From a virus, in the UHGV virus genome UHGV-1292719: 28,171 nt of DNA. One strand, written 5' to 3'. Both the position numbers and the translations under genes were made by a program. Below, in pieces: positions 1,454 through 28,171 of this stretch. Each line of letters opens with the position of its first letter. Positions within the stretch are counted from its first letter, which is position 1. Under the pieces are notes generated by a model that saw only the letters and a program-made list of their open reading frames with translations, made no database searches and was not told where the DNA came from.

Positions 1454-2194
1454 TCAATGTTGAGGAAGTGAATTAACTGCATTTACGATTGGTTCTAACG
1501 AGAAACCAGTCCCAATGCCAGGATTGGCATTAAGATTCAACATTTCATTAACCATTTGCAGTGAGCGACTGAACATATCTGCCATTCGTCCAAAGTTAAC
1601 CCCCATGACTTCCACTGACATTTGCTGTGCTGCCTGCGCCAAATAGCCGCGAAGCTGAGCAACTTCATTAGAGAGCTGCTGCGCATCAGGCGGCAGAATG
1701 TATCGACGTTGAGTAACAATGCCTACAGCTTCTCCCGTTTCCCGGTCAATAATTGGACCGCCTGAATTTCCACCATTAACCATTCCATCAAGAGCAAAAC
1801 GCCCACTTTCCAGAGGGGCGGAAATAATCCCTTCATTCGTAAGCAATTGAGGCAGCCCATGCGGATACCCGGCAAAGATTAACTTTTTGCCTCGAGTTGG
1901 AGTAAATCCTACAGATGGTTGAAGTACTGTTCTCCCGGCAGGAAGCGGTGATTGCAACCGCATAATCGCAAAGTCGTTGTCACCATCAATGTACAATATT
2001 TGAGCTTCTATATGCTCATTAGATTCAGTCTGAAGGTTAACATGATTAATTTGACGCAGATTCTGCAAGTTACAGCAGGCGGCGACAACATGAAAATTGG
2101 TTACGACCAGATCTTCTCGCATAAAGCTGAACCCACTACCACGAGAATCCCCTGCAATGACCTGAAAAGTTGCGTTGGCTAGAGTTTGATGCAT
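1454..2194 (-). CDS. trypsin-fold (S1/chymotrypsin-like) serine protease, no signal peptide, with ~90-aa C-terminal extension
   Basis: 246-aa ORF; catalytic-triad motifs in order His (VVTNFHVV), Asp (DNDFAIMRL), Ser (GNSGGP); GGAG 7 nt upstream of the ATG; no hydrophobic N-terminal leader. Confidence 0.8.
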   Translation of the reverse strand: MHQTLANATFQVIAGDSRGSGFSFMREDLVVTNFHVVAACCNLQNLRQINHVNLQTESNEHIEAQILYIDGDNDFAIMRLQSPLPAGRTVLQPSVGFTPTRGKKLIFAGYPHGLPQLLTNEGIISAPLESGRFALDGMVNGGNSGGPIIDRETGEAVGIVTQRRYILPPDAQQLSNEVAQLRGYLAQAAQQMSVEVMGVNFGRMADMFSRSLQMVNEMLNLNANPGIGTGFSLEPIVNAVNSLPQH

Positions 2195-4557: not shown

Positions 4558-5046
4558 CTATGCTACATGTTTAATTTTCTCTACACGTTTCCGGTTTTTA
4601 AACGCACTATTCAGAACCGGGTAAATCATAAACAACGAGGCATTGAGGATTTCGTCAACTTCCCGTCGACAGGTTGCGAGCGATGGTTTTTGAATGCGCC
4701 CGCCGCCCCGGCATAACATCTTGCGAGGTCTTGCGACGCGATGATAGTAAGATGCAATGGCGTGCTTGGAAGAGCCGTGGGCGTAGTAGCTGAGGAGGAT
4801 GCCAAAGGCTTTCTTGTCAATGTACATGACGGAATTGACGACCTGAGAAATCAACATTCCATCATCATCATTACACATTGGCCTTGTCATAACTCTTCCC
4901 GGCTCTACGCTCTCCATGAACTTAGCTATTACGCTGCTCATGCGCTTTTCCAGACGACCTGAATAAACCCATGCGCCCCACAGTTCAAGCCAGCCATTCA
5001 GCCACTCGTGCTGTTCTTTGGTGAGGTTTAGTTCTCTTATGCCCAT
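4558..5046 (-). CDS. Q: late-gene antiterminator Q-like protein
   Basis: Last gene before the lysis cassette, immediately after ninG; ORF trimmed to the ATG preceded by AAGGGAGAAGG (MGIRELNLTKEQ...). Confidence 0.65.
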   Translation of the reverse strand: MGIRELNLTKEQHEWLNGWLELWGAWVYSGRLEKRMSSVIAKFMESVEPGRVMTRPMCNDDDGMLISQVVNSVMYIDKKAFGILLSYYAHGSSKHAIASYYHRVARPRKMLCRGGGRIQKPSLATCRREVDEILNASLFMIYPVLNSAFKNRKRVEKIKHVA

Positions 5047-5089
5047 GCGCCTTCTCCCTTGTGATCTGGAATGGTTTTTACTGAGAACG

Positions 5090-5704
5090 TCATGCGGCCT
5101 CACTTCTGCTGTTTCGCAGGTCTTTGAGTTTCTGCTGATACTCCGCCTTGATGGCCCTGCACTCTTCGACAGTCCAGCGATGGCGGTTATGGTTTGATTC
5201 GATTTCGTCTACTGCTTCCTGCCCGATGCGGCTAATCAGTTCGACGCGATACGGAACGAGATTTCCGCTTTTGTGCTGGTTGCACACCACGCATTGCTTG
5301 TGAATATTGCGTTCATCAAATCGGAGTTGAGGTGCCGCAGCAGTTGTCCGGTAATGTCCGGCATCCCACTGAGCAGACGTGAGCGTTCCGCAAGAGATAC
5401 ATGGTAAGTCGCGGTCTCTTTCTCTGATGAAGGCGTTTACGGCTTGTTGGGCTTGTTTAATCCAGTAACTGCGGGGCTTTAAGGCGAGTTTTCTAATCTT
5501 AAGTTTATCTTTCTGTTTCTGCTCCTCTCGTCGTCGTTTCTTCTCTGCTGCTTTTTCCGCTTTTTCGCGTTCTTTACTTCGTCGTTCGAGTGCTATCTTG
5601 GTTCCACACTCTGGAGAGCACCACCACTGATTAGCGAATGCAGGGTGAAACCATTCCCGACATTCATCGTTTTTACATCGTCTTCGCGCTGGTTTAGCCA
5701 TCAT
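5090..5704 (-). CDS. ninG: NinG (Rap) recombination protein
   Basis: 204 aa, cysteine-rich N-terminus and lysine/glutamate-rich basic stretch; matches lambda NinG from memory. Confidence 0.85.
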
Positions 5705-17162: not shown

Positions 17163-17608
17163 TATAAGAATCCGCTTCTAATTCAAAGCATTACCCCATC
17201 AACACTGCGCTCACACGTCCCACCACATCAAAACATGTAAAGCCTTGCAAGCCATTGTGAGGCCTTTTGTGTCTCAGTTTTGTCCCATCCGCGCTTGTGT
17301 TTTCTTTCATACATACACAATAATATAAATTAAAATAATAAACTATGAAACTAATGTGTCTTTCATCAACAACATGGTAACAATGCTTATTATAACATTG
17401 TGTAATTATCATTTTTTCCGAGCATTGTGTGAAATTCATACCGATTTGTTGCAAAAAAAAATTACAAGTAAAATGTTTTTAAAATGTAATTTTGGAGGAA
17501 AAGACAAGTCTACTAACCACCTGTTAATACAATTAATCATGAATATATTTCTTTAGCCCCGAGATATTAATTAATTAGTTGTTCATCGCTTTATATACTG
17601 GTTTCATT

Positions 17609-19810
17609 ATGCTTAATAAAAAAACAATTGCTGTGTTAATAGCTTCTACAATTCCAACAACAGCTTTAGCCGCATCATTTACTCAAAATATTGCAAAAGG
17701 AACAGAAGTCAGCAATGAGGTTATTGATGGTAAGCAGTCCGTTTATGGTAATATTACAAATAGTATGATTACTACTGGCGGGCATCAATACATTTACTCT
17801 GGAGGAGCAGCTTCTGATATTATTCTTAATGGTGGTAAAAGCACTGTAAATAACGCCGACATCAAAAATTTCAAAATAATAAACGGAATTCAGGCCTTAA
17901 ATACTGGTGCTATATCTTATTCCGCAGAAATAACTGGAACGGGTATCCAGCGTGTAAATGATGGTGCTAAATCAGCTTATAGCACATTAGCCAATGGTGG
18001 TCGACAGTATATAAATTCTGGTGGAAAGTCAGAAAACACCACTATTGAAAGTGGTGGGAGTCTTTATACTTACGCTAACGGTGAGTCCCTCAACACTACT
18101 GTCAATGATGGGGCGTTCTTTGTTAGAGGGGGGACTGCAACTAATAGCGTTATTAATGGTGGTAAACAAGTAGTAACCGAAGGAGGGATCACTACTGGTG
18201 ACATTATCAATGACGGTGGTTATCAAAATATTGGTGTAAATGGTTCTGCCTTTAATGTTGTAGTTAATAAAGGCGGCCGTCAAGATATTAATACTGGCGG
18301 CTATGCAAAAGATACAACCATCATTGGTGGACAATATGATATAGATCCAGAGGCAACTGGTGAAAATGTAAGTTTTGACGGTGGTTTAGGTTTTGTTCGT
18401 GAAACTGGAATTTTAACTGGCTATGCCACTCTAAAAAACGGTGCTGAAATTTATATGGCTGAGGGTTCTGATGCAGATATTTCACTATCTAGTCAGAGCA
18501 AGCTTTATGTTGTTAATGATATTACAAATAGCAACATGACACTGGATAACTCATCTGTTTATTTCCGTTCTTCTTTTGATGGTGAATTATCAACAAATTT
18601 AAAAGAATTTAAAACTCTGAACGTCAATAAACTAAACGCCAATAACTCCTCGTTCTTTATGAAAGTTGAAGGTATGAATGGCGATTTTCTTAATATTTCC
18701 GAGTTTTCTGGCGATAACAACACAGTTAGCATTAATGGTAGCGGTAAAGAAAGCAGTGATGGATATCATCTGATTCACGCTGGTAATAGTAGTGTTGATG
18801 CTTTTAAATTAGACGGTGGCAAAGTTGAACTTGGCTCATATGTCTATACATTAGAAAAAAATAATGATGACTGGTATTTAAGACAGCATGCTGATCAACT
18901 TTCATCCTCAGCAAAAACTGTTCTTTCAATGGCATCTTATGCATCTTCAATATTTACAAATGAATTTCATACTATCTCTGATAGATTGAATAATAGTTTG
19001 ACCGATATTGAAGGGAATCATCTTTGGGGAAGATTTATCAGCTCTGATTATCGTGTTAATAATGGTGTGAATGAACCATATAAACTTACACAAAATGGTT
19101 TTGAGTATGGATTAGGCAAAACCATTTCAAAAGAACATGGCGATTTTAGTTTTGGTATCTCCGCTGGTATTACCCAAAACAAAATAAAAGAAAAATCTGG
19201 GACTCGTTCTGATGTTGACAGTTACTCAGTTGGTTTATACGGTTCCTATATCCACAAAAACGGATTCTACATTGATGGATTAATCAAAGGAAACCGATTT
19301 GATAACACTACGGAGATTATCATTGATTCGTCCGACATTGCTACTGCTAATTTTAAACAAACTGGCTTTGGTTCTGCATTAGAATTTGGCAAATATACTT
19401 GGTTTGATAATTCATTTGTTACTCCATATGTACGAACAGAATACTTCATGGCCAACAATGAAGAAGTTAAGATTAGCAATGGAATGAAGGCTGATTTGGG
19501 CAATGACAGATCATTGAAAGGAGAAGCCGGGGTTAAATTAGGGACAAACTTAAATGTTTGGCAAAACACTAATATTACTCCATACTTAAAAGTATCACTT
19601 GAACACGAATTCATTGATGACAACTATATTAAGATCAATGACAGTGTAAAAATTAACAATGATAACTCGGGAACCATCGGGAATTATAGTTTAGGCCTTG
19701 ATGCTAAGATGGGCAAAAATGCATCTTTTTATTCTGAGCTTGGTTACTCTAAAGGTTCAAACATCGAGGTTCCATTCAACGTAAAAGCTGGTGTTCGAGT
19801 CCTCTTTTAA
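17609..19810 (+). CDS. autotransporter (type Va) adhesin-like protein: signal peptide, repetitive beta-helical passenger, C-terminal beta-barrel
   Basis: ORF 17579..19810 trimmed to MLNKKTIAVLIASTIPTTALAA; repeated ~19-aa GG-x-Q-x-I-x-GG-x-A-x-T-I motifs; C-terminus ends ...NVKAGVRVLF; AT-rich codon usage. Confidence 0.85.
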   Translation: MLNKKTIAVLIASTIPTTALAASFTQNIAKGTEVSNEVIDGKQSVYGNITNSMITTGGHQYIYSGGAASDIILNGGKSTVNNADIKNFKIINGIQALNTGAISYSAEITGTGIQRVNDGAKSAYSTLANGGRQYINSGGKSENTTIESGGSLYTYANGESLNTTVNDGAFFVRGGTATNSVINGGKQVVTEGGITTGDIINDGGYQNIGVNGSAFNVVVNKGGRQDINTGGYAKDTTIIGGQYDIDPEATGENVSFDGGLGFVRETGILTGYATLKNGAEIYMAEGSDADISLSSQSKLYVVNDITNSNMTLDNSSVYFRSSFDGELSTNLKEFKTLNVNKLNANNSSFFMKVEGMNGDFLNISEFSGDNNTVSINGSGKESSDGYHLIHAGNSSVDAFKLDGGKVELGSYVYTLEKNNDDWYLRQHADQLSSSAKTVLSMASYASSIFTNEFHTISDRLNNSLTDIEGNHLWGRFISSDYRVNNGVNEPYKLTQNGFEYGLGKTISKEHGDFSFGISAGITQNKIKEKSGTRSDVDSYSVGLYGSYIHKNGFYIDGLIKGNRFDNTTEIIIDSSDIATANFKQTGFGSALEFGKYTWFDNSFVTPYVRTEYFMANNEEVKISNGMKADLGNDRSLKGEAGVKLGTNLNVWQNTNITPYLKVSLEHEFIDDNYIKINDSVKINNDNSGTIGNYSLGLDAKMGKNASFYSELGYSKGSNIEVPFNVKAGVRVLF

Positions 19811-19940: not shown

Positions 19941-20429
19941 TCAAATCAAGCATCGCACTCTGAAGCAAGTAGCCATCTGCCTGCTTCCTTTGATCTGCGA
20001 GAAGTTTGTGGCAGTGATCACCAATCCCCCCTGTGCGCGAGCAGCTTTCAGTCCAGCTTTTGTTCGTTCAACAATCAGTTCACGCTCCATTTCAGCCAGA
20101 GCACCCATCACATGAAAGAAAAAGCGTCCCATTGAGGTACTGGTATCAATTGAATCCGTCAGACTACGAAAGTTGATGCCTCGTTCGCGCAACTCCTCCA
20201 CCAGCACGACAAGATGCCGCATACTGCGCCCCAGCCGATCCAGCTTCCAGACAACCAGAGTGTCACCTTCCGATAATGTCCTGAGCAGTTTTTTCAATCC
20301 CGGCCTTTCGGACTTTGTACCGCTTATCTTGTCTTCAAAAATCAGCTCGCATCCTGCACAGTTCAGCGCATTACGTTGTAGATCTGTGTTCTGGTCATTT
20401 GTTGACACACGTACATAGCCAATAAGCAT
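19941..20429 (-). pseudogene. pin: Din-family serine invertase (Pin/Gin/Hin-like), catalytic domain intact, C-terminal HTH domain lost
   Basis: MLIGYVRVSTNDQNTDLQRNALNCAGCELIFEDKISG...VERTKAGL is a typical resolvase/invertase catalytic domain; after ARAQG the frame diverges at a C6/G6 homopolymer (20036-20041) and ends in unrelated sequence at the junction with the AT-rich islet. Confidence 0.7.
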
Positions 20430-20455
20430 GGTAGATCTCCCTGACAAAAGCAGGG

Positions 20456-21007
20456 ATGATGCCATTTGCTCGTTATTTCTACATTTTCATAAACGTTGGT
20501 TTGGGAGAAGGCTCTGCATTACCTGTTGGGGTGCCTGTTCCGTGGCCTTCAGCCACTCCGCCAACAGGCTGGCTGAAATGCAACGGAGCAGCTTTTTCTG
20601 CTGAAGAATACCCGGAGCTGGCAAAGGCTTACCCGACAAATAAATTGCCTGATTTACGTGGTGAGTTTATTCGTGGCTGGGATGACGGACGTGGTATGGA
20701 TACGGGGAGGGCAATATTATCCGCTCAGGGCGATGCCATACGTAATATCTATGGTGAGTTCAAGACTGTAAACACCGAAAATTATTCAATATGGGAATCA
20801 GTAGGCTCTTTTAAGGGGGCAGTGGTGCCTTTGAACCCCTCAACGAACAATAGTTATTTCTCCTTAATCAGAAGTATGGTGACAGAAAGAACAGATGGCG
20901 CTGTTTACCCAAAAGTGATTGGCCTTGATGCTTCAAGAATTGTTCCAACTGCAAACGAAAACCGTCCTCGTAACATTGCCTTTAATTATATCGTGAGGGC
21001 TGCCTGA
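20456..21007 (+). CDS. alternative tail-fibre C-terminal segment (Sv'-type) inside the invertible segment; silent in this orientation
   Basis: ORF has no credible own start; from the crossover site it encodes ...NVGLGEGSALPVG..., and the expressed fibre on the other strand encodes ...[11 protein letters not shown] at the matching site. Confidence 0.6.
   Translation: MMPFARYFYIFINVGLGEGSALPVGVPVPWPSATPPTGWLKCNGAAFSAEEYPELAKAYPTNKLPDLRGEFIRGWDDGRGMDTGRAILSAQGDAIRNIYGEFKTVNTENYSIWESVGSFKGAVVPLNPSTNNSYFSLIRSMVTERTDGAVYPKVIGLDASRIVPTANENRPRNIAFNYIVRAA
20484..20509. repeat. left recombination site (hix/gix-like) of the invertible segment
   Basis: Core AAACG-TT-GGTTT; 15-bp perfect inverted repeat TTGGTTTGGGAGAAG shared with 22368-22382. 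Confidence 0.55.
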
Positions 21008-21609
21008 TGAATAAAGCCGTATTAAATAACGAACTCATTGCCATAAAAGCGGGAGTCATTACCATTTATAATTATGATGGTGAAACGCGGGAGTATATTT
21101 CCACATCAACTGAATATCTTGCGGTTGGCGTCGGTATCCCGGCATGTTCTTGTTTAGATGCACCAGTTACACATAAAGCTGGTTATGCAATCTGCCGTTC
21201 TGCAGATTTTAACTCATGGGAATATGTGCCAGACCATCGCGGTGAAATCATCTATAGCACCGAAACAGGAGAATCGAAAGAAATCACAGCTCCGGGTGAT
21301 TATCCTGAAAATACAACCACTATCGCCCCGTTAACGCCATACGATAAATGGGATGGTGAGAAATGGGTGACGGATACCGAGGCACAGCATAGCGCCGCAG
21401 TAGAAGCGGCAGAAGCACAGCGCCAGTCGCTGATTGATGCTGCAATGGCTTCCATCAGTCTGATTCAGCTGAAATTACAGGCCGGGCGGAAGCTGACGCA
21501 GCCAGAAAACACCCGACTTAACGCTGTGCTGGATTATATTGACGCGGTGACGGCAACAGATACCAGCACAGCGCCAGACGTCATCTGGCCTGAACTGCCG
21601 GAGGCGTAG
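21007..21609 (+). CDS. tfa: tail fibre assembly protein (chaperone) paired with the silent fibre segment
   Basis: 200 aa; conserved C-terminal chaperone region ...DYIDAVTATDTSTAPDVIWPELP. Confidence 0.8.
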   Translation: MNKAVLNNELIAIKAGVITIYNYDGETREYISTSTEYLAVGVGIPACSCLDAPVTHKAGYAICRSADFNSWEYVPDHRGEIIYSTETGESKEITAPGDYPENTTTIAPLTPYDKWDGEKWVTDTEAQHSAAVEAAEAQRQSLIDAAMASISLIQLKLQAGRKLTQPENTRLNAVLDYIDAVTATDTSTAPDVIWPELPEA

Positions 21610-22021
21610 GCCATTCAATATCTGGCGCACCGGAAGTATCGACCAGTTCCAGTGCGTCCAGATAATCCAGCCACAAATTATATTGCGCCAGTTCCCCACC
21701 TTTCAGGCGACCAATCGCCGCTTTACCAGGCCATTGCTTACTGTTTATGTATTCGTTGACCTGATTAATCAATTGCTGCTTTTCCAATTCGGCTGCGGCA
21801 ATTTGTTCCTCATGAGTTGGCGGTGGAATATCAATCCATGCAGGCATTCCGTCGATGACACCTCTGTATTTTCCTTCTGGTGCTTCCTTCATAAATTCGG
21901 CGGCAACAGTGTCGTCAATTTCGATTCCATCACCGGGCCATTCGCCGGATTCCTGATAAGCGATTTTAAGCTCCACAGGGAAAAACGCATTTTTATCGGC
22001 ACTGAAAATATATTTCTGCAT
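21581..22021 (-). CDS. tfa: tail fibre assembly protein (chaperone) for the expressed fibre
   Basis: 146 aa; C-terminus ...LWLDYLDALELVDTSGAPDIEWPTPP parallels the plus-strand copy. Confidence 0.8.
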   Translation of the reverse strand: MQKYIFSADKNAFFPVELKIAYQESGEWPGDGIEIDDTVAAEFMKEAPEGKYRGVIDGMPAWIDIPPPTHEEQIAAAELEKQQLINQVNEYINSKQWPGKAAIGRLKGGELAQYNLWLDYLDALELVDTSGAPDIEWPTPPAVQAR

Positions 22022-22023
22022 TT

Positions 22024-22737
22024 CTACCGTCCTATCGAAATATAACTGAATCTGTATTGCTGTGAGATATCACTGGTTGCCACACGCCACGCTGAATTAC
22101 TGATATGTTCAAAATTTACAGACAAAACCTGCGGGGCAGGATTCGACGGGTCTGACTGAACGGCATCAGACATAACACTGACTGAAACCATCGGCTGATT
22201 AGGGAATGGTATAGGGAAGTGTCCACTGATAAAGCGGGTCGTGTTTCCTGAAAAAGTGCCAAACTGAACAATATATCCACCTGGTAGCCTGAACCATCCC
22301 GAACCAGAAGCGAATGCTCCCATATCCGGTATCTGATTATCTCCTGTGCCCACATCCCTTTTCGCCGCTTCTCCCAAACCAAGGTTTTCGAGAGCCGTTT
22401 TCACCGTGCCATCCGATTTGATATCGCCAAACGGATTCTTGCGGCTCAGGTATTCAACAGCAAACCCCGATCCCAGCAATTCAACAAAACCGGGCAGATC
22501 ACCATTATCAAGCACATCCCGTTGCGTTTTGTCACTTACAAACTGGGCCAGAGCTGCAGCAATAAAGCTGGCCTGCCGAATAACCTTATTGACTTGCGCA
22601 CTGGATGCTTTCCCTGCTGTAAATCCGGATAAAAGCGCAGGCAACGCTTCCCATTCCTCCTGCGACATAACATTGGCATTCCGATCAGTTGCAAACGCTT
22701 TAAAGTCATTTTTCGCCATCAGAGTAATACTCCCCAT
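22024..22737 (-). CDS. tail fibre protein (constant N-terminal part fused to the currently expressed variable C-terminal part)
   Basis: 237 aa; N-terminal [27 protein letters not shown]...[23 protein letters not shown] is typical of Mu S / e14 Stf-type fibres; crossover site lies inside the gene. Confidence 0.75.
22369..22394. repeat. right recombination site (hix/gix-like) of the invertible segment, inside the tail-fibre gene
   Basis: Palindromic core AAACC-AA-GGTTT (plus strand 22376-22387); inverted copy of the left site. Confidence 0.55.
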
Positions 22738-24595: not shown

Positions 24596-24948
24596 TACGC
24601 CTCCGATGTAACAGTCGTTATTCCATAAAGAGTGTCGATTTCAGCGGAAAACATGACACGTCGGGTCGTGGTATCCACCGTCGTATTGAAAGAGAGGATT
24701 GATTTAACGCCCCGCGTTTCAAGGATGCGCTTACGGATCGCCAGGTTGTAGGTTTCCGGCTTCTGCTTACCGAGTACGGACTGGATCCACGGAATCCCCT
24801 CGGTGGTGTCGAGAAACCATTGCCCATACCACAATTCGAATCGCGTTTTTACCGCCTGCGCCACGGCCTCCGGTGAGTTAATCAGCCAGGTGTCATCACC
24901 GCTGCCAAAGGTGTAATCGCCATCGGCGTCTTCACGTCTGTATCGCAT
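24595..24948 (-). CDS. small baseplate protein (W / gp25-like, tentative)
   Basis: 117 aa directly upstream of and overlapping the J-like gene. Confidence 0.5.
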   Translation of the reverse strand: MRYRREDADGDYTFGSGDDTWLINSPEAVAQAVKTRFELWYGQWFLDTTEGIPWIQSVLGKQKPETYNLAIRKRILETRGVKSILSFNTTVDTTTRRVMFSAEIDTLYGITTVTSEA

Positions 24949-25721
24949 CAGTTTACTCCGTCGGTATTGCTTCCACCGCGCTGAACACCACCATGAGTGT
25001 GCGTATCATCGATTGGCTTGCCGTTAGCCTTCACGCTACCCAAAAACTCAACAGCACCAGTGATTTTTGAAGCCACACCAGAAACAACAGACCCCACCAT
25101 GCCTCCCATCCAGGTTAACAGGCCATGAATGGTTACTTTCTCAGAAAAATCAGCCAGAGGGGCAACCACATCAAGCCCCCCCGGAGCGACAATTTTAATT
25201 TTCCTGGTATCAGGATTAAGCTCAAAATAGGTGCTGCCGTCGTCACTACGCAACTGTGTGGCACTGGTATTAATACCGCTAATCTTCCTTGCCTGCGACT
25301 GGGGACCGACAATACAAAACGCATCCGATAAATCATGCATTCGATCATCGACCGGCTCCTGTATCCCGCCACTCTGCCACCAGAAATCAATACAACGATC
25401 GGCAAAAATCACCAGGCATTCATCGCCGGCTTCCACCGGGAAAGTTAACGTGCAGCCGCCGCCGCGCGGGAATACCACTGGCACATCCACCAGCAATGGG
25501 TAATTTTGGGTAATGCGGTTGCCGTCATTATCCTTTTCAACCGAACGGATCGCAGGCTGCACAACCGCTGTCACCGCATCAGGATCGAATGACTGGACGA
25601 TGCCAGGCAAAGCAACACGGATCTGGTTCTTTGTTGTGTCCCGCTCTGATTTGAATGTTTCGGCAAGGTCGCCGCTGCGGGTCGGGTCAGATAATGCCAT
25701 TTGGTAGGCTCCAGAAAGCAA
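24948..25721 (-). CDS. baseplate spike / assembly protein V-like (Mu gp45 family, tentative)
   Basis: 257 aa with glycine-rich C-terminus (GGMVGSVVSGVASKITGAVEFLGS...HTHGGVQRGG); upstream of the W-like gene. Confidence 0.55.
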   Translation of the reverse strand: MLSGAYQMALSDPTRSGDLAETFKSERDTTKNQIRVALPGIVQSFDPDAVTAVVQPAIRSVEKDNDGNRITQNYPLLVDVPVVFPRGGGCTLTFPVEAGDECLVIFADRCIDFWWQSGGIQEPVDDRMHDLSDAFCIVGPQSQARKISGINTSATQLRSDDGSTYFELNPDTRKIKIVAPGGLDVVAPLADFSEKVTIHGLLTWMGGMVGSVVSGVASKITGAVEFLGSVKANGKPIDDTHTHGGVQRGGSNTDGVN

Positions 25722-25746
25722 AAAACCCGCCGGGTGGCGGGTTTTA
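25720..25746 (-). terminator. rho-independent terminator (bidirectional hairpin) after the two-gene cargo operon
   Basis: AAAAAA-CCCGCC-GGGT-GGCGGG-TTTT; A-run and T-run flank a 6-bp GC stem. Confidence 0.7.
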
Positions 25747-25763
25747 TTAATTACTTAATAGGC

Positions 25764-26186
25764 TTAACTTGCAGTTTTTTTAGTATCAATCATACCAGCA
25801 ATAAGTGACTGCAAATCCTCTGCATCCTTGATGGTACTACAAGCATCAATCCGATTAACGTGCTTATCAAGATTATAATCAGCAATGACTCTTCGGTGAT
25901 GCGCGGTTTTGAGCTTAAGCCCAACCTTTTTGGCAGAAGTTCGGTCAAGACTATGTGCTAGAGCTGCATTCTCGCCGCAAAGATATTCAGAAAGCCTCGC
26001 ATGTACCCCACCGGGTAACTTTTGCCCTTTCTCATCTTGAGTTGGGATATAGCCATCCGTGAGCAATAACGCTGAATGATACATCGTATAATACGCTCTA
26101 CTTATCGCATTACGCGTCCACTGTTCACCGCTATTCTCAATAGAGCTTTTAGCCATCTCCAGAAAGCAGTTAATCGCTACAGGCAT
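25764..26186 (-). CDS. HEPN-like protein (140 aa), tentative
   Basis: N-terminal helix AISRAYYTMYHSALLLTDG resembles the conserved first helix of HEPN domains and contains an R-x6-H spacing; start overlaps the upstream stop. Confidence 0.55.
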   Translation of the reverse strand: MPVAINCFLEMAKSSIENSGEQWTRNAISRAYYTMYHSALLLTDGYIPTQDEKGQKLPGGVHARLSEYLCGENAALAHSLDRTSAKKVGLKLKTAHHRRVIADYNLDKHVNRIDACSTIKDAEDLQSLIAGMIDTKKTAS

Positions 26187-26917
26187 CAGTTCACCGCCTC
26201 AAAGTAAGCGACACTGCATCCCGTTTCTAGACCTCTTTCAATCATCTCATCAACGACCTTATCGTTAAGATATGAAAGATACTCTGCGTCTTCAGTTTCG
26301 ATGCCAACAGAAAAAGAACCATAACCCTCACCATCGGTAAGCAGACTGGAGGTTTTAGCACGGAGTGATTCGCTTTCCACAATGTACATCAATACATCTG
26401 CAGCTTTTTTCAAACCGTCACTCATTGGACCGCCTAAGTTGCTCAAAACTACAGCGGTTTCCAATGCAGATACATGCTTTTCTTTTTCAGTTTGACCAAA
26501 TTTCTCAAGCTTAGCGATAGCCATATCGAGAATCTCCCCATCAGCCCAGAAGGCCGCAAAATTTAAACCATGTTCGGCCATGCAGGGGAAGTCGTAGTCG
26601 AGAGCCCGAGTAAGCAACTCTCGCCGTTTAGAGTAAAGCCCAAGGTTGCTTAGTGCGCTAGAATAATTGTTCCAAGTAACAGGATCTGTCGGGCATATGG
26701 CTAGAGATGTCTCAATCGCCTCGATACCTCGCTCCACTTTGCCATCCAGCAACAGAATCAGCCCTTCAAGTGCTAGAGATTGATACCTTATAGGTAAAGC
26801 ACGGGCATCTCTCAACAACTTCTGTTTTTCAAGGTCAAGAAGCAAGATTCTTCCTGCTTCCAAGGATGGACCAAGCTTAGCGACGACTTCTCCAGTTTTT
26901 GGTTGCGCTACTGGCAT
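26186..26917 (-). CDS. alpha-helical repeat (TPR-like) protein (243 aa), tentative
   Basis: Repeated amphipathic helix pairs with W/L/G/Y/A spacing (e.g. WNNYSSALSNLGLYSKRRELLTRALDYDF); acidic C-terminus; first gene of a two-gene operon after a 136-bp intergenic region. Confidence 0.55.
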   Translation of the reverse strand: MPVAQPKTGEVVAKLGPSLEAGRILLLDLEKQKLLRDARALPIRYQSLALEGLILLLDGKVERGIEAIETSLAICPTDPVTWNNYSSALSNLGLYSKRRELLTRALDYDFPCMAEHGLNFAAFWADGEILDMAIAKLEKFGQTEKEKHVSALETAVVLSNLGGPMSDGLKKAADVLMYIVESESLRAKTSSLLTDGEGYGSFSVGIETEDAEYLSYLNDKVVDEMIERGLETGCSVAYFEAVN

Positions 26918-27053
26918 AAGGTGCTTTTACTCTTCTTAGTCATTTTGTAGTCGACGTAGTTTAAACAAGTATTAGCTGCAAGCAACAACTTTGTAAAACC
27001 ACACAGGTAGATTAGATGTAAATTTCATCCAAGTACCTAACCAGAAAGAAAGT

Positions 27054-27395
27054 TTAGCCATAGACTTTCTTACACGGGAAAGACCCGATGATTTTCGGCG
27101 CGTCCATGCTGTTCTGCAGCAGCTGGACGTTCAGGAAACGCTTTTCGGTACCAGGGCGACGAATGTATTCAAAGCCGTAGTTGTTACCGTCTTTGGCAGG
27201 CATAAGCCCCATGTCTACTTTCAAACCATTGGTACCCAGCTCGGTGATTTTTTGAGAGGTAACTCTTTCACCGTTGATTGTCGATAACTCGCCCTGGTTT
27301 GCAACCATAGTGTAGCCACCGCATTTAACCGTAAAGCCATCCGCCCACGCGCTGCACGCAGAAAAGACAGCTAACAGAAAAATAATCCCCCTCAT
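27054..27395 (-). CDS. small secreted/periplasmic protein (113 aa) with signal peptide
   Basis: MRGIIFLLAVFSACSAWA then mature domain with two cysteines; AAGGGGA upstream; start 3 nt after the hub-gene stop. Confidence 0.6.
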   Translation of the reverse strand: MRGIIFLLAVFSACSAWADGFTVKCGGYTMVANQGELSTINGERVTSQKITELGTNGLKVDMGLMPAKDGNNYGFEYIRRPGTEKRFLNVQLLQNSMDAPKIIGSFPCKKVYG

Positions 27396-27398
27396 TGC

Positions 27399-28171
27399 TC
27401 ATCCCCTTTGCAAAGCCGATTGCGTATACAGATCCGCCGCGCCACGCGCTTCGCACATCATATCCATGTACCACGCCTGGCCCCTTGTGTCGCCAGTGTA
27501 CATAATCCCGCGCACAATATAAACGCCATCCGTTGCGATGCTGGCAGGCTGCGCCGTGGTGCCGCTAAGCGTGATATTTCCGTCCGTGTTCTGGTCAGTG
27601 ATCTGCCCACCAGCCTTAGCGATATCGTTGTTCGACAGCGCGGTGCGATACACGGAAGCCTGATCCAGTTGAATGAGTCCGTTAACCCGGATGTTCGGAT
27701 TAATAAGCGCGCGGACGTTTACGCCGTTGCCGATGGTCTGCTGCGGCATACCGATAAGCCCGGTAGCGCTGTTGAGCACAATCGCTTTGTGAACATATTC
27801 ATTATTCGCCACCATCTGGCGCTGACCGTCCACGAATTGCCATGTTGCGCCACATTGCCCGGCTACATTATCCATAAGATGCCGCGTCATGCCAAAGAGT
27901 ACCCGCCCCCGGGGGAATACAGTAGCAGGCATTTCAGGCGTCAGGCCTTCGGTCGCACCTTTGGCTTCGAAGTCTTTCATCAGCGCACGGTTCACATCAG
28001 CGACCGTGTAACCGGCAGCCAGCGTCTGTGAGGTTATACTGGTGGCAAAAGCCAGATCTGTATCGGCTGCCTGAATCAGGACGTAGGAATCAACCGGGCT
28101 GTCTTTTCCTGTGACCGAGTAGCGAATTTCACCGCTGAAAATCAGTCCGTAGTTGCGGCCATCACTCTGGC
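27399..28171 (-). CDS. baseplate hub / gpD-like tail protein, C-terminal portion (gene runs off the window end)
   Basis: Hand translation shows the frame open upstream of the ORF-track start (a GTG) to the window edge with no stop; position upstream of the spike gene fits a Mu gp44 / P2 gpD-type protein. Confidence 0.55.
   Translation of the reverse strand, partial: QSDGRNYGLIFSGEIRYSVTGKDSPVDSYVLIQAADTDLAFATSITSQTLAAGYTVADVNRALMKDFEAKGATEGLTPEMPATVFPRGRVLFGMTRHLMDNVAGQCGATWQFVDGQRQMVANNEYVHKAIVLNSATGLIGMPQQTIGNGVNVRALINPNIRVNGLIQLDQASVYRTALSNNDIAKAGGQITDQNTDGNITLSGTTAQPASIATDGVYIVRGIMYTGDTRGQAWYMDMMCEARGAADLYTQSALQRG

What the first reader, a model, noticed from the sequence alone, without database searches (positions are those of the whole stretch)
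25764..26917. Two-gene cassette (TPR-like protein plus HEPN-like protein) with its own terminator, inserted between baseplate hub and spike genes
Seen in sequence: two overlapping ORFs (243 aa and 140 aa) preceded by a 136-bp intergenic region and followed by a strong bidirectional terminator (25720-25746); they interrupt an otherwise contiguous Mu-type baseplate gene order and look AT-richer than the flanking tail genes (by eye, not computed). The 140-aa protein has an N-terminal helix (AISRAYYTMYHSALLL) resembling HEPN domains; the 243-aa protein looks like a helical-repeat scaffold. Established knowledge: HEPN domains are typically RNases and recur as effectors in abortive-infection, toxin-antitoxin and CRISPR-associated systems. 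Inference: a candidate anti-phage or toxin-like module carried as a moron; I cannot match the pairing to a named system.
Basis: partly seen in the sequence, partly recalled or inferred. Interest (0 to 1): 0.75.

Follow-up and report, generated by a model that had tools for sequence, protein, structure and literature searches.

The report
Swappable HEPN toxin-like pair in prophage tail
A prophage carries, at a swappable slot inside its tail genes, a two-gene unit made of a probable RNA-cutting toxin (HEPN fold) and a repeat-protein partner. It looks like an unnamed toxin-antitoxin or anti-phage module, but its function has not been tested.

Summary
Two translationally coupled genes on the minus strand, A (26186-26917, 243 aa) and B (25764-26186, 140 aa), form a 1.3-kb AT-richer segment between a conserved 113-aa gene downstream of the baseplate hub and the spike gene.

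The slot is a cargo hotspot in SEN34-like (Brunovirus) prophages:
- Flanks are about 90-96% identical in the most closely related prophages (lower in more distant ones), while the cargo differs.
- At least seven deeply diverged A+B alleles occur there, or a YafO toxin pair, or small membrane proteins.
- This allele is in 12 of 5426 complete E. coli genomes.

A and B stay adjacent in at least 9 unrelated phage contexts, including the tin/old defence hotspot of a P2-like Vibrio phage.

The terminator belongs to the conserved backbone, not to the cassette.

Best reading (confidence 0.55): an autonomous moron encoding a HEPN RNase toxin held by a TPR partner, acting as a toxin-antitoxin or abortive-infection module. 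No defence database model or paper I could search names it.

The parts
27054..27395 (-). Conserved 113-aa signal-peptide protein (phrog_3443; called 'STY1065/STY2022 family phage-derived protein' in some RefSeq records). It is the left backbone flank of the hotspot, not part of the cassette.
   Evidence: ORF. PHROG hit E 8e-48. Present next to every alternative cargo. The conserved DNA flank starts at 27049-27067.
25749..27050 (.). Variable (swappable) segment: intergenic region, gene A, gene B and about 15 nt after the B stop codon.
   Evidence: BLAST breakpoints against 14 related loci: right flank ends at 25742-25767, left flank starts at 27049-27067. GC is 43.7%. This DNA is found in only 12 of 5426 E. 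coli genomes, all at least 99.3% identical, with no intermediate identities even with sensitive blastn.
26918..27053 (-). 136-bp AT-rich intergenic region upstream of A (34.6% GC), carrying a sigma-70-like site at 26997-26968 (TTTACA, 18 nt, AATACT). Putative cassette promoter, unverified.
   Evidence: The promoter match is 9 of 12 and is not enriched over shuffles.
26186..26917 (-). Gene A, 243 aa. Ten helices forming a TPR-like repeat (TPR unit about aa 44-110) plus a C-terminal beta-beta-alpha-beta domain (aa 187-242). Aa 136-180 are the most variable part. Proposed partner, antitoxin or sensor of B.
25764..26186 (-). Gene B, 140 aa. HEPN domain of the AF0298/UPF0332 (HEPN-T) type, a putative RNase toxin. 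Residues invariant across all alleles: E21, R25, S29, R30, Y32, Y33, H62, L92, R99, D103, Y104.
25716..25745 (-). Intrinsic-terminator-like hairpin plus U-tract, 18 nt after the B stop and about 21 nt before the spike ATG. It belongs to the conserved backbone and forms the right boundary of the hotspot.
   Evidence: -18.9 kcal/mol, z = -4.2. It lies inside the flank shared by all cargo alleles.
24948..25700 (-). Baseplate spike gene (N-terminal spike domain plus apex motif), the right backbone flank. The real start is probably ATG 25700, as in RefSeq, not the TTG at 25721 that lies inside the terminator.
   Evidence: Pfam PF18352 E 2.4e-44 and PF18946. RefSeq annotation gives 753 bp. Sequence.

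Best explanation
The segment is an autonomous two-gene moron sitting in a cargo hotspot of a lambdoid-regulated, SEN34-like myovirus prophage.

Gene B encodes a small HEPN-T-type protein. It most likely acts as a metal-independent RNase toxin that uses R99 together with the relocated His62, as proposed for AF0298-like HEPNs.

Gene A is translated first and is coupled to B through a TGATG overlap. It encodes a TPR-like protein that occupies the operon position normally held by the MNT antitoxin of HEPN-T toxins. I infer that A binds B and keeps it inactive, and that A is also the specificity or sensor component.

On infection by another phage, or on loss of the element, A is titrated or degraded. 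B is then released and cleaves RNA, stopping growth. That is abortive infection or addiction.

In the lysogen the pair would be expressed from its own AT-rich upstream region and stopped by the backbone terminator. In lytic growth, Q-antiterminated late transcription would read through that terminator into the spike gene.

Shown here: the ORFs and their coupling; the HEPN fold and residue conservation; the TPR-like fold of A; strict A-B adjacency; hotspot behaviour; and the presence of a Q antiterminator.

Inferred: RNase activity, toxicity, neutralisation by A, the trigger, the defence phenotype and the expression pattern.
For: 1. HEPN identity of B.
- Profile E 1.6e-7 to solved HEPN 9xbd, aligned over aa 26-132.
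- The 'UPF0332' label appears on homologues.

2. The active-site pattern fits a described catalytic variant.
- Anantharaman et al. 2013 (PMC3710099) report that AF0298-like HEPN-T proteins keep the R, lose the motif His (often replaced by D), and carry a conserved alternative His in the insert between helices 2 and 3.
- B has invariant R99, D103/Y104 and H62. H62 lies in the 44-81 insert. All are conserved across 14 alleles that are only 23-57% identical to the window's B.

3. Toxin-antitoxin-like operon.
- The partner gene is upstream, with spacing from -20 to +3 nt in all 13 or more loci.

4. A and B travel as one unit, in all of these contexts:
- the Brunovirus-type baseplate slot in E. coli and Ewingella;
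- siphovirus tail modules in Lelliottia and Klebsiella;
- next to a T7-like terminase in Brenneria and in a metagenome;
- next to an integrase in Pantoea;
- the nin-like region of Klebsiella phage Chronis;
- between replication gene A and the portal gene in a P2-like Vibrio phage. That position is the tin/old defence hotspot of P2 (PMC9519451).

5. Co-divergence.
- Pairwise identities of A and B correlate (Spearman 0.83 over 78 pairs).
- A always diverges faster, with mean identity 24% against 37% for B.

6. Hotspot behaviour.
- The same flanks carry at least 7 A+B alleles, a YafO-toxin pair, or DUF4282, DUF2335 or other small proteins.
- A+B alleles make up 15 of 30 two-flank rows in an evenly spread sample.

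7. An A-only remnant exists in phage YP3, where B is deleted. No B-only locus was seen.

8. Classical moron setting.
- A Q antiterminator (4558-5103, PF06530) and a lambdoid layout are present in the window.
- The segment has lower GC and GC3 than its flanks.
Against: - There are no functional data of any kind.
- The canonical Rx4-6H His is absent. Catalysis by the alternative His is itself only a published prediction, and some PF05168-type HEPNs (sacsin, the KNTase C-terminal domain) bind ligands rather than cut RNA.
- None of the alternative cargos in the slot, and neither A nor B, matches a validated defence system in PADLOC 2.0.0. The slot is therefore not yet a proven defence hotspot.
- The promoter call is no better than chance.
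- The co-divergence statistic ignores shared ancestry.
- The A-only argument rests on a single locus.
Confidence: 0.55

Rival explanations
1. It is a plain addiction (toxin-antitoxin) module that stabilises the prophage or its tail region, with no role against other phages. B is a toxin, A a labile antitoxin, and allele diversity reflects exclusion between competing cassettes.
For: It shares the operon logic and HEPN evidence of the best explanation. A YafO-family toxin pair occupies the same slot in other prophages. No known defence model matches.
Against: The pair recurs at moron positions of many different temperate phages, including the P2 tin/old defence hotspot. Many prophage toxin-antitoxin pairs have turned out to act in defence. 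The partner is a 243-aa TPR-type protein, which is more typical of sensors than of small labile antitoxins.
Confidence: 0.2
2. B is a non-catalytic HEPN that binds a ligand or RNA. The A-B pair then serves the phage itself, for example as a counter-defence, a regulator of lysogeny or late expression, or a host-modulating factor, and not as a toxin.
For: The canonical catalytic His is missing. The nearest structural relatives include non-nuclease HEPNs such as sacsin and the HEPN domain of Roquin. B's own sequence does not reach any Pfam or NCBIfam threshold.
Against: R99, H62, E21, D103 and Y104 stay invariant at 23-57% overall identity, which points to a conserved active or modified site. This matches the alternative active site predicted for AF0298-like HEPN-T toxins (PMC3710099). 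The operon is toxin-antitoxin-like, and the only decayed copy seen is A-only.
Confidence: 0.15
3. The two proteins are accessory tail or baseplate assembly factors (chaperone-like) specific to this tail type.
For: The pair lies inside the baseplate gene block, in the same orientation as the late genes. TPR proteins can act as chaperones.
Against: Prophages with about 90-96% identical hub-side (113-aa gene) and spike flanks lack the pair and carry unrelated cargo, or only a 79-aa protein. The pair also occurs in siphovirus, podovirus-like and P2-like genomes, and beside an integrase. B has a HEPN fold. PHROG families 5176 and 22649 have no structural annotation.
Confidence: 0.03

Closest known systems
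HEPN-T / UPF0332 proteins (PF05168; AF0298, PDB 2hsb) and the HEPN-MNT (HepT/MntA) type VII toxin-antitoxin systems
   Different: The partner is not a minimal nucleotidyltransferase. A is a 243-aa TPR-like protein with a beta-beta-alpha-beta C-terminal domain and no NTase motif or hit. Neutralisation by AMPylation, the defining mechanism of type VII systems, is therefore not expected.
Prophage-encoded HEPN abortive-infection proteins HepS (Gifsy-1; PMC13043305) and Tha (S. aureus prophages; PMC11087260)
   Same: All are HEPN effectors carried by temperate phages as accessory genes. HepS and Tha are activated by tail proteins of incoming phages, which gives a working model for a trigger.
   Different: HepS and Tha have no separate TPR-like partner gene of this kind. 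No sequence relationship to either was detected. The window's pair has a separate TPR partner and an atypical active-site pattern, and no phenotype is known.
AbiV (Lactococcus abortive infection protein)
   Same: According to Anantharaman et al. 2013, AbiV carries the alternative conserved His at the same position as AF0298-like HEPN-T proteins, the same pattern seen in B. It is a validated Abi protein.
   Different: AbiV is a single, larger protein from Gram-positive plasmids or chromosomes. No match to an AbiV model turned up in the PADLOC search. It has no TPR partner.
HEPN families found with repeat proteins (LA2681, fused to or in an operon with TPR; AbiU2, in an operon with a Sel1-repeat protein), from the HEPN census in PMC3710099
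   Same: They share the architectural theme of a HEPN nuclease domain paired with an alpha-helical repeat protein in a conflict-system context.
   Different: Those HEPN families keep the canonical Rx4-6H motif and belong to different HEPN clades. No homology to them was tested or detected here.
Cargo and defence hotspots of temperate phages (P2 tin/old and Z/fun loci, the P4 psu-int locus; PMC9122126, PMC9519451, PMC13586616) and classical lambdoid 'morons'
   Same: All show fixed insertion points between conserved core genes, rapid turnover of unrelated cargo among near-identical backbones, lower GC, and a flanking terminator. One A+B homologue sits in the P2 gene A-portal hotspot.
   Different: This hotspot lies inside the baseplate block (between the 113-aa gene and the spike) of SEN34-like myoviruses. 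No paper I could search describes it. None of its cargos is yet a validated defence system.

Membership tests
HEPN superfamily (fold level) | Four-helix up-down bundle superimposable on solved HEPN domains | tested here: met
HEPN-T / PF05168 / UPF0332 (sequence level) | Significant profile match to family members | tested here: met
   The allele profile A5 against PDB sequences gives 9xbd E 1.6e-7 (aa 26-132) and 2hsb E 1.4e-5. PF05168 is hit by 3 of 14 alleles at E 2.7e-4. The window protein alone gives no Pfam or NCBIfam hit, so membership rests on profiles and structure.
Catalytic HEPN RNases | Rx4-6H motif at the end of helix 3 | tested here: not met
   That position reads R99-V-I-A-D103-Y104 and has no His in any allele. 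R30-x6-H37 fits the pattern but lies in helix 2, which is not the catalytic position.
AF0298-like HEPN-T subgroup (alternative active site) | Motif Arg kept, His lost (replaced by D), and a conserved His in the insert between helices 2 and 3 (PMC3710099) | tested here: met
   R99, D103 and H62 are invariant in 14 of 14 alleles and 25 of 25 close homologues. H62 lies in the 44-81 insert of the model.
HEPN-MNT type VII toxin-antitoxin | Adjacent MNT nucleotidyltransferase antitoxin (GSx(n)DxD) that AMPylates the HEPN Tyr | tested here: not met
   The partner A has no NTase hit in Pfam, NCBIfam or PADLOC. Its predicted fold is TPR-like plus a beta-beta-alpha-beta domain. No MNT gene lies in the segment.
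Type II-like toxin-antitoxin pair | Bicistronic operon with the antitoxin upstream and tight coupling; toxin toxicity neutralised by binding; usually an autoregulatory DNA-binding domain | tested here: inconclusive
   The architecture fits: spacing is -20 to +3 nt in every locus. No DNA-binding domain was detected in A. Toxicity and neutralisation cannot be tested with these tools.
TPR repeat proteins | 34-residue helix-turn-helix repeats recognised by TPR profiles and structures | tested here: met
Phage moron / cargo hotspot | Insert between conserved late genes, absent or different in close relatives, with deviant composition and its own promoter and terminator | tested here: met
   Variable presence and sharp breakpoints are shown. 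Lower GC and GC3 are shown. The terminator is present but belongs to the backbone. The promoter is only a weak consensus match. A Q antiterminator is present in the window.
Known anti-phage defence systems (PADLOC-DB 2.0.0) | Match to a system's protein models | tested here: not met
   B gives only HEPN_IX at E 1.6e-4 (8 of 14 alleles) and one weak PDC-M05B hit. A gives nothing for the window protein and one weak TPR hit among 36 relatives. DefensePredictor's DS-28 HEPN pair is a different family with a canonical RNSVAH motif.

The most novel reading that the evidence does not exclude
The A+B family is a previously unnamed class of phage-borne immune module. In it, the MNT antitoxin of a HEPN-T toxin has been replaced by a TPR-type protein that both restrains the toxin and directly senses a protein of an invading phage. 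The many deeply diverged alleles, swapped at fixed slots in tail modules and at the P2 tin/old locus, would then record an arms race over trigger specificity. The toxin would be the first functionally relevant example of the predicted 'relocated-histidine' HEPN active site.
Probability: 0.3. Interest if true: 0.7.

Novelty: new variant of a known kind. Interest (0 to 1): 0.5.

Why it matters
If the pair is a toxin-and-sensor module, three things follow.
- It adds a new partner type (TPR plus a small beta-beta-alpha-beta domain) to HEPN-T toxins, which are otherwise known with MNT antitoxins.
- It gives a tractable E. coli system for testing the long-predicted alternative HEPN active site (Arg plus a relocated His).
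- It defines a new, easily scanned cargo hotspot inside the baseplate block of SEN34-like prophages, including one in EPEC E2348/69. The other occupants of that slot (a YafO pair, DUF4282, DUF2335 and unknowns) would then become candidate exclusion or defence genes.

If the pair turns out to be an ordinary addiction module, the finding is a routine prophage moron.

Tried and rejected
- Direct family scans of the window proteins. Pfam, NCBIfam, PADLOC and PHROGs gave only sub-threshold TPR hits, a weak HEPN_IX hit and unknown-function PHROGs.
- hhalign between the thin A243 alignment and the A256/A258 pair was not significant. Homology among the A alleles was instead established in three ways: transitive BLAST links, an exhaustive profile search, and a 36-sequence alignment that recognises the Vibrio homologue at E 3.5e-14.
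- A known named system was considered and rejected.
  - DefensePredictor DS-28 is a different HEPN.
  - Accession searches found no paper.
  - The PADLOC model name HEPN_IX appears in no paper.
  - The source of PDB 9xbd/9xbc was not found.
- HEPN-MNT membership was rejected because there is no nucleotidyltransferase.
- A tail-assembly role was rejected on synteny.
- Repeats flanking the cassette as recombination scars: none in the window. A 124-nt repeat was found only in phage YP3.
- The identity of A's C-terminal beta-beta-alpha-beta domain could not be resolved, because whole-model fold searches are dominated by TPR hits.
- The idea that the slot is a proven defence hotspot was tested by scanning the other cargos against PADLOC. 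None matched.
Full report
**1. What is in the sequence**

Two minus-strand ORFs occupy the stated coordinates: A at 26186-26917 (243 aa) and B at 25764-26186 (140 aa). The A stop codon and the B start codon share one base (…AAC TGA TG…), and a GAGG lies 9-13 nt upstream of the B start. This arrangement suggests translational coupling.

Upstream of A is a 136-bp intergenic region with 34.6% GC. It holds one sigma-70-like site (TTTACA, 18 nt, AATACT; 26997-26968). The scan found no more such sites than shuffled sequence gives, so this site is only a lead.

Eighteen nucleotides after the B stop there is a 10-bp, GC-rich hairpin followed by a U-run (25745-25716). It folds at -18.9 kcal/mol, z = -4.2, and none of 200 shuffles folds as well.

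The segment is measurably AT-richer than its neighbours: 43.7% GC against 49-55%, and GC3 0.38-0.41 against 0.44-0.62.

The neighbours are baseplate genes. On one side lie the hub (which runs off the window end; phrog_196, E217 gp41-like) and a 113-aa signal-peptide protein. On the other lie the spike (spike N-terminal domain plus apex motif), a sheath-initiator-like 117-aa gene, baseplate J and DUF2612.

**2. The slot is a cargo hotspot, and the terminator belongs to the backbone**

The flanks of the segment occur in 262 of 5426 complete E. coli genomes. Only 12 of these carry this cassette (99.3-99.5% identical). Sensitive blastn with the cassette alone finds nothing else, so there are no intermediate alleles at the DNA level.

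In the other prophages the flanks are about 90-96% identical among close relatives. Identity breaks off sharply at window 25742-25767 on one side and 27049-67 on the other. The hairpin therefore lies in the shared flank. It is the right border of the slot in every allele, not a feature of this cassette. The left border is the stop codon of the conserved 113-aa gene, not the hub.

The slot holds one of the following:
- other two-gene pairs with the same architecture:
  - A243+B142
  - A256+B131, also present in EPEC E2348/69
  - A258+B123, which RefSeq labels 'HEPN domain-containing protein'
  - A257+B126
  - A272+B127
  - A257+B131, where RefSeq leaves the B gene unannotated
- a YafO-family toxin with a 190-aa upstream gene
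- single small proteins: DUF4282, DUF2335 and two unknowns.

In an evenly spread sample of 30 loci with both flanks, 15 carried an A+B pair, 8 carried DUF4282 and 4 carried the YafO pair.

Sequenced relatives also differ at this point. Salmonella phage SEN34 (genus Brunovirus), Yersinia phage YP3 and Escherichia phage vB_EcoM-606R2 each carry different cargo here.

The window itself carries a lambdoid control region: a CI-like repressor, O/P replication genes, NinG, a Q antiterminator (4558-5103), lysozyme and Rz. Late transcription is therefore probably Q-antiterminated. That would explain how a strong hairpin about 21 nt upstream of the spike start codon can be tolerated. It also gives the classical moron logic: autonomous expression in the lysogen and read-through in lytic growth. 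This last step is inference.

**3. Protein B is a HEPN domain of the AF0298/UPF0332 type**

- **Homologues.** The search returned 32 homologues of 134-146 aa, all from Enterobacterales or metagenomes. Two of them carry the label 'UPF0332 family'.
- **Fold.** The AlphaFold2 model is confident (pLDDT 91.6).
  - Next come TT1696, ST0689, sacsin-HEPN, LsoA, SO_3166, HepT and Csx1/Csm6.
  - Foldseek gives the same ranking.
- **Sequence profile.** A profile of 14 diverged alleles matches solved HEPN chains: 9xbd at E 1.6e-7 (nearly full length) and 2hsb at E 1.4e-5. Three alleles hit PF05168.
- **Motif.** The canonical Rx4-6H motif is not present. The corresponding position reads R99-VIA-D103-Y104.
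- **Match to a published variant.** Anantharaman et al. 2013 describe this variant for AF0298-like HEPN-T proteins: the Arg is kept, the His is lost (often replaced by D), and a conserved alternative His lies in the insert between helices 2 and 3. They predict that this forms an alternative RNase site, and note that AbiV shares it (PMC3710099).
- **Conservation in B.** E21, R25, S29, R30, Y32, Y33, H62, L92, R99, D103 and Y104 are invariant across alleles that are only 23-57% identical to the window's B. H62 lies in the 44-81 insert.
'AISRAYYTMYH' is the family's signature helix 2. It is not the catalytic motif.

**4. Protein A is TPR-like with an extra C-terminal domain, and is not an MNT**

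- **Profile search.** An exhaustive profile search found about 35 full-length relatives (220-274 aa). It also found hundreds of long TPR proteins that match aa 50-110 repeatedly.
- **Solved structures.** The family profile hits consensus TPR proteins at E 1.7e-54.
- **No nucleotidyltransferase.** No NTase signature or hit was found.
- **One family.** The A proteins of the different alleles belong together. This rests on transitive BLAST links, a consistent 36-sequence alignment, and hhalign at 98% probability to the Vibrio homologue.
- **Variability.** The most variable part is aa 136-180. The N-terminal helices, the TPR core and the C-terminal domain are better conserved.

**5. A and B behave as one mobile unit**

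Wherever a B homologue was located, an A homologue lies immediately upstream, with spacing of -20 to +3 nt. The contexts are:
- the same baseplate slot in Ewingella
- siphovirus tail modules, after the tape measure gene in Lelliottia and before it in Klebsiella
- next to a T7-like terminase in Brenneria and in a metagenome
- beside an integrase and an IS element in Pantoea
- a nin-like region in Klebsiella phage Chronis
- between replication gene A and the ogr/portal side in a P2-like Vibrio phage.

The last position corresponds to the P2 locus that harbours tin and old, where several new defence systems were found (PMC9519451).

Pairwise identities of A and B are correlated (Spearman 0.83 over 78 pairs; not corrected for phylogeny). 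A always diverges faster than B.

Yersinia phage YP3 keeps an A gene but has lost B. No B-only locus was seen. This is the order of decay expected for an antitoxin-toxin pair, but it rests on one case.

Only 2 of 50,697 deposited phage genomes encode a B homologue. Apart from those two, every B homologue I located lies in a bacterial genome or metagenome contig, within or beside phage or integrase genes.

**6. Mechanism**

*Best-supported model (confidence 0.55).* This is a moron encoding a HEPN-T RNase toxin (B). B is restrained by a TPR-type partner (A) that has taken the place of the usual MNT antitoxin. B would be released on phage infection or on loss of the element, giving abortive infection or addiction.

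*Shown.* The gene anatomy, the folds, the conserved residues, the linkage of A and B, and the hotspot behaviour.

*Inferred.* RNase activity, toxicity, neutralisation by A, the trigger, and expression from the cassette's own promoter.

*Rivals.*
- A pure addiction module (0.2).
- A non-catalytic HEPN with a phage-serving role, for example regulation or counter-defence (0.15).
- A tail assembly factor (0.03), which synteny largely refutes.

*Main weaknesses.* There is no functional evidence. The active site is atypical. Neither the pair nor the other cargos in the slot match any PADLOC 2.0.0 system.

**7. Comparison with what is known, and novelty**

The closest family for B is HEPN-T/UPF0332, and membership is met at both fold and profile level. 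The pair is not a HEPN-MNT system, because the defining nucleotidyltransferase is absent.

Functional analogues are the prophage HEPN Abi proteins HepS and Tha (PMC13043305, PMC11087260), AbiV, and HEPN-plus-repeat-protein operons such as LA2681 and AbiU2-Sel1 (PMC3710099). The slot resembles the P2/P4 hotspots (PMC9122126, PMC13586616).

I found no paper or defence model that names this pair or this hotspot. These were limited searches, so this is absence of evidence only.

I rate it a new variant of a known kind, with interest 0.5. It is a concrete and readily testable candidate, but it is not surprising in kind.

Noticed in passing
window 17579-19810 (+): A 743-aa autotransporter adhesin (Autotransporter beta-domain, AIDA and Pertactin domains; BafA/Ag43-like) lies in a markedly low-GC stretch (32-40%). 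It sits between the integrase/att end (similarity to other genomes stops at about 17163) and the tail-fibre genes, and looks like another cargo gene in the phage 'b-region'.
   Followed up: partly
window 19941-22737: This looks like an invertible tail-fibre (host-range) segment. A Gin/Cin-type resolvase-invertase (19941-20465, -) lies next to a tail-collar fragment and a tail-fibre assembly gene on the + strand (20456-21609). These face a second assembly gene and the fibre C-terminus on the - strand (21581-22737).
   Followed up: partly
window 27054-27395 (-): A 113-aa protein with an N-terminal signal peptide (phrog_3443; 'STY1065/STY2022 family phage-derived protein' in some records) is conserved between the hub and the hotspot in all relatives examined. 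Its function is unknown, and a secreted protein is odd inside a baseplate block.
   Followed up: partly
L021 (Yersinia phage YP3) 1598-1721 and 2522-2645: A perfect 124-nt direct repeat flanks the A-only remnant. The 5' leader and start codon of the spike gene are duplicated in front of the A gene. This could be a recombination scar of cassette exchange or B loss, or an assembly artefact. There is no equivalent repeat in the window.
   Followed up: partly
L008 461-856 and L012 (E. coli BY63, BH100): An intact 131-aa HEPN (B-type) ORF downstream of the 257-aa A gene is not annotated in RefSeq, so automated annotation under-counts this pair.
   Followed up: yes
PDB 9xbd and 9xbc: Two recently deposited 'HEPN domain-containing protein' chains are the best sequence matches to the B family. 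They differ in the aligned stretch by Y to F at the Tyr of the RxxxDY motif, which suggests someone is testing that Tyr (Y104 in B). No associated paper was found.
   Followed up: partly
window 1454-2194 (-): A trypsin-like serine peptidase gene (PF13365) lies downstream of the lysis cassette. It may be another accessory gene of the prophage.
   Followed up: no
window 27399-28171 and 25700-25721: Two ORF-calling caveats. The hub ORF is listed as 198 aa from a GTG, but its frame stays open to the window end (RefSeq gives 353 aa). The spike ORF is listed from a TTG at 25721 inside the terminator U-tract, whereas ATG 25700, preceded by GGAG, is the likely start.
   Followed up: yes
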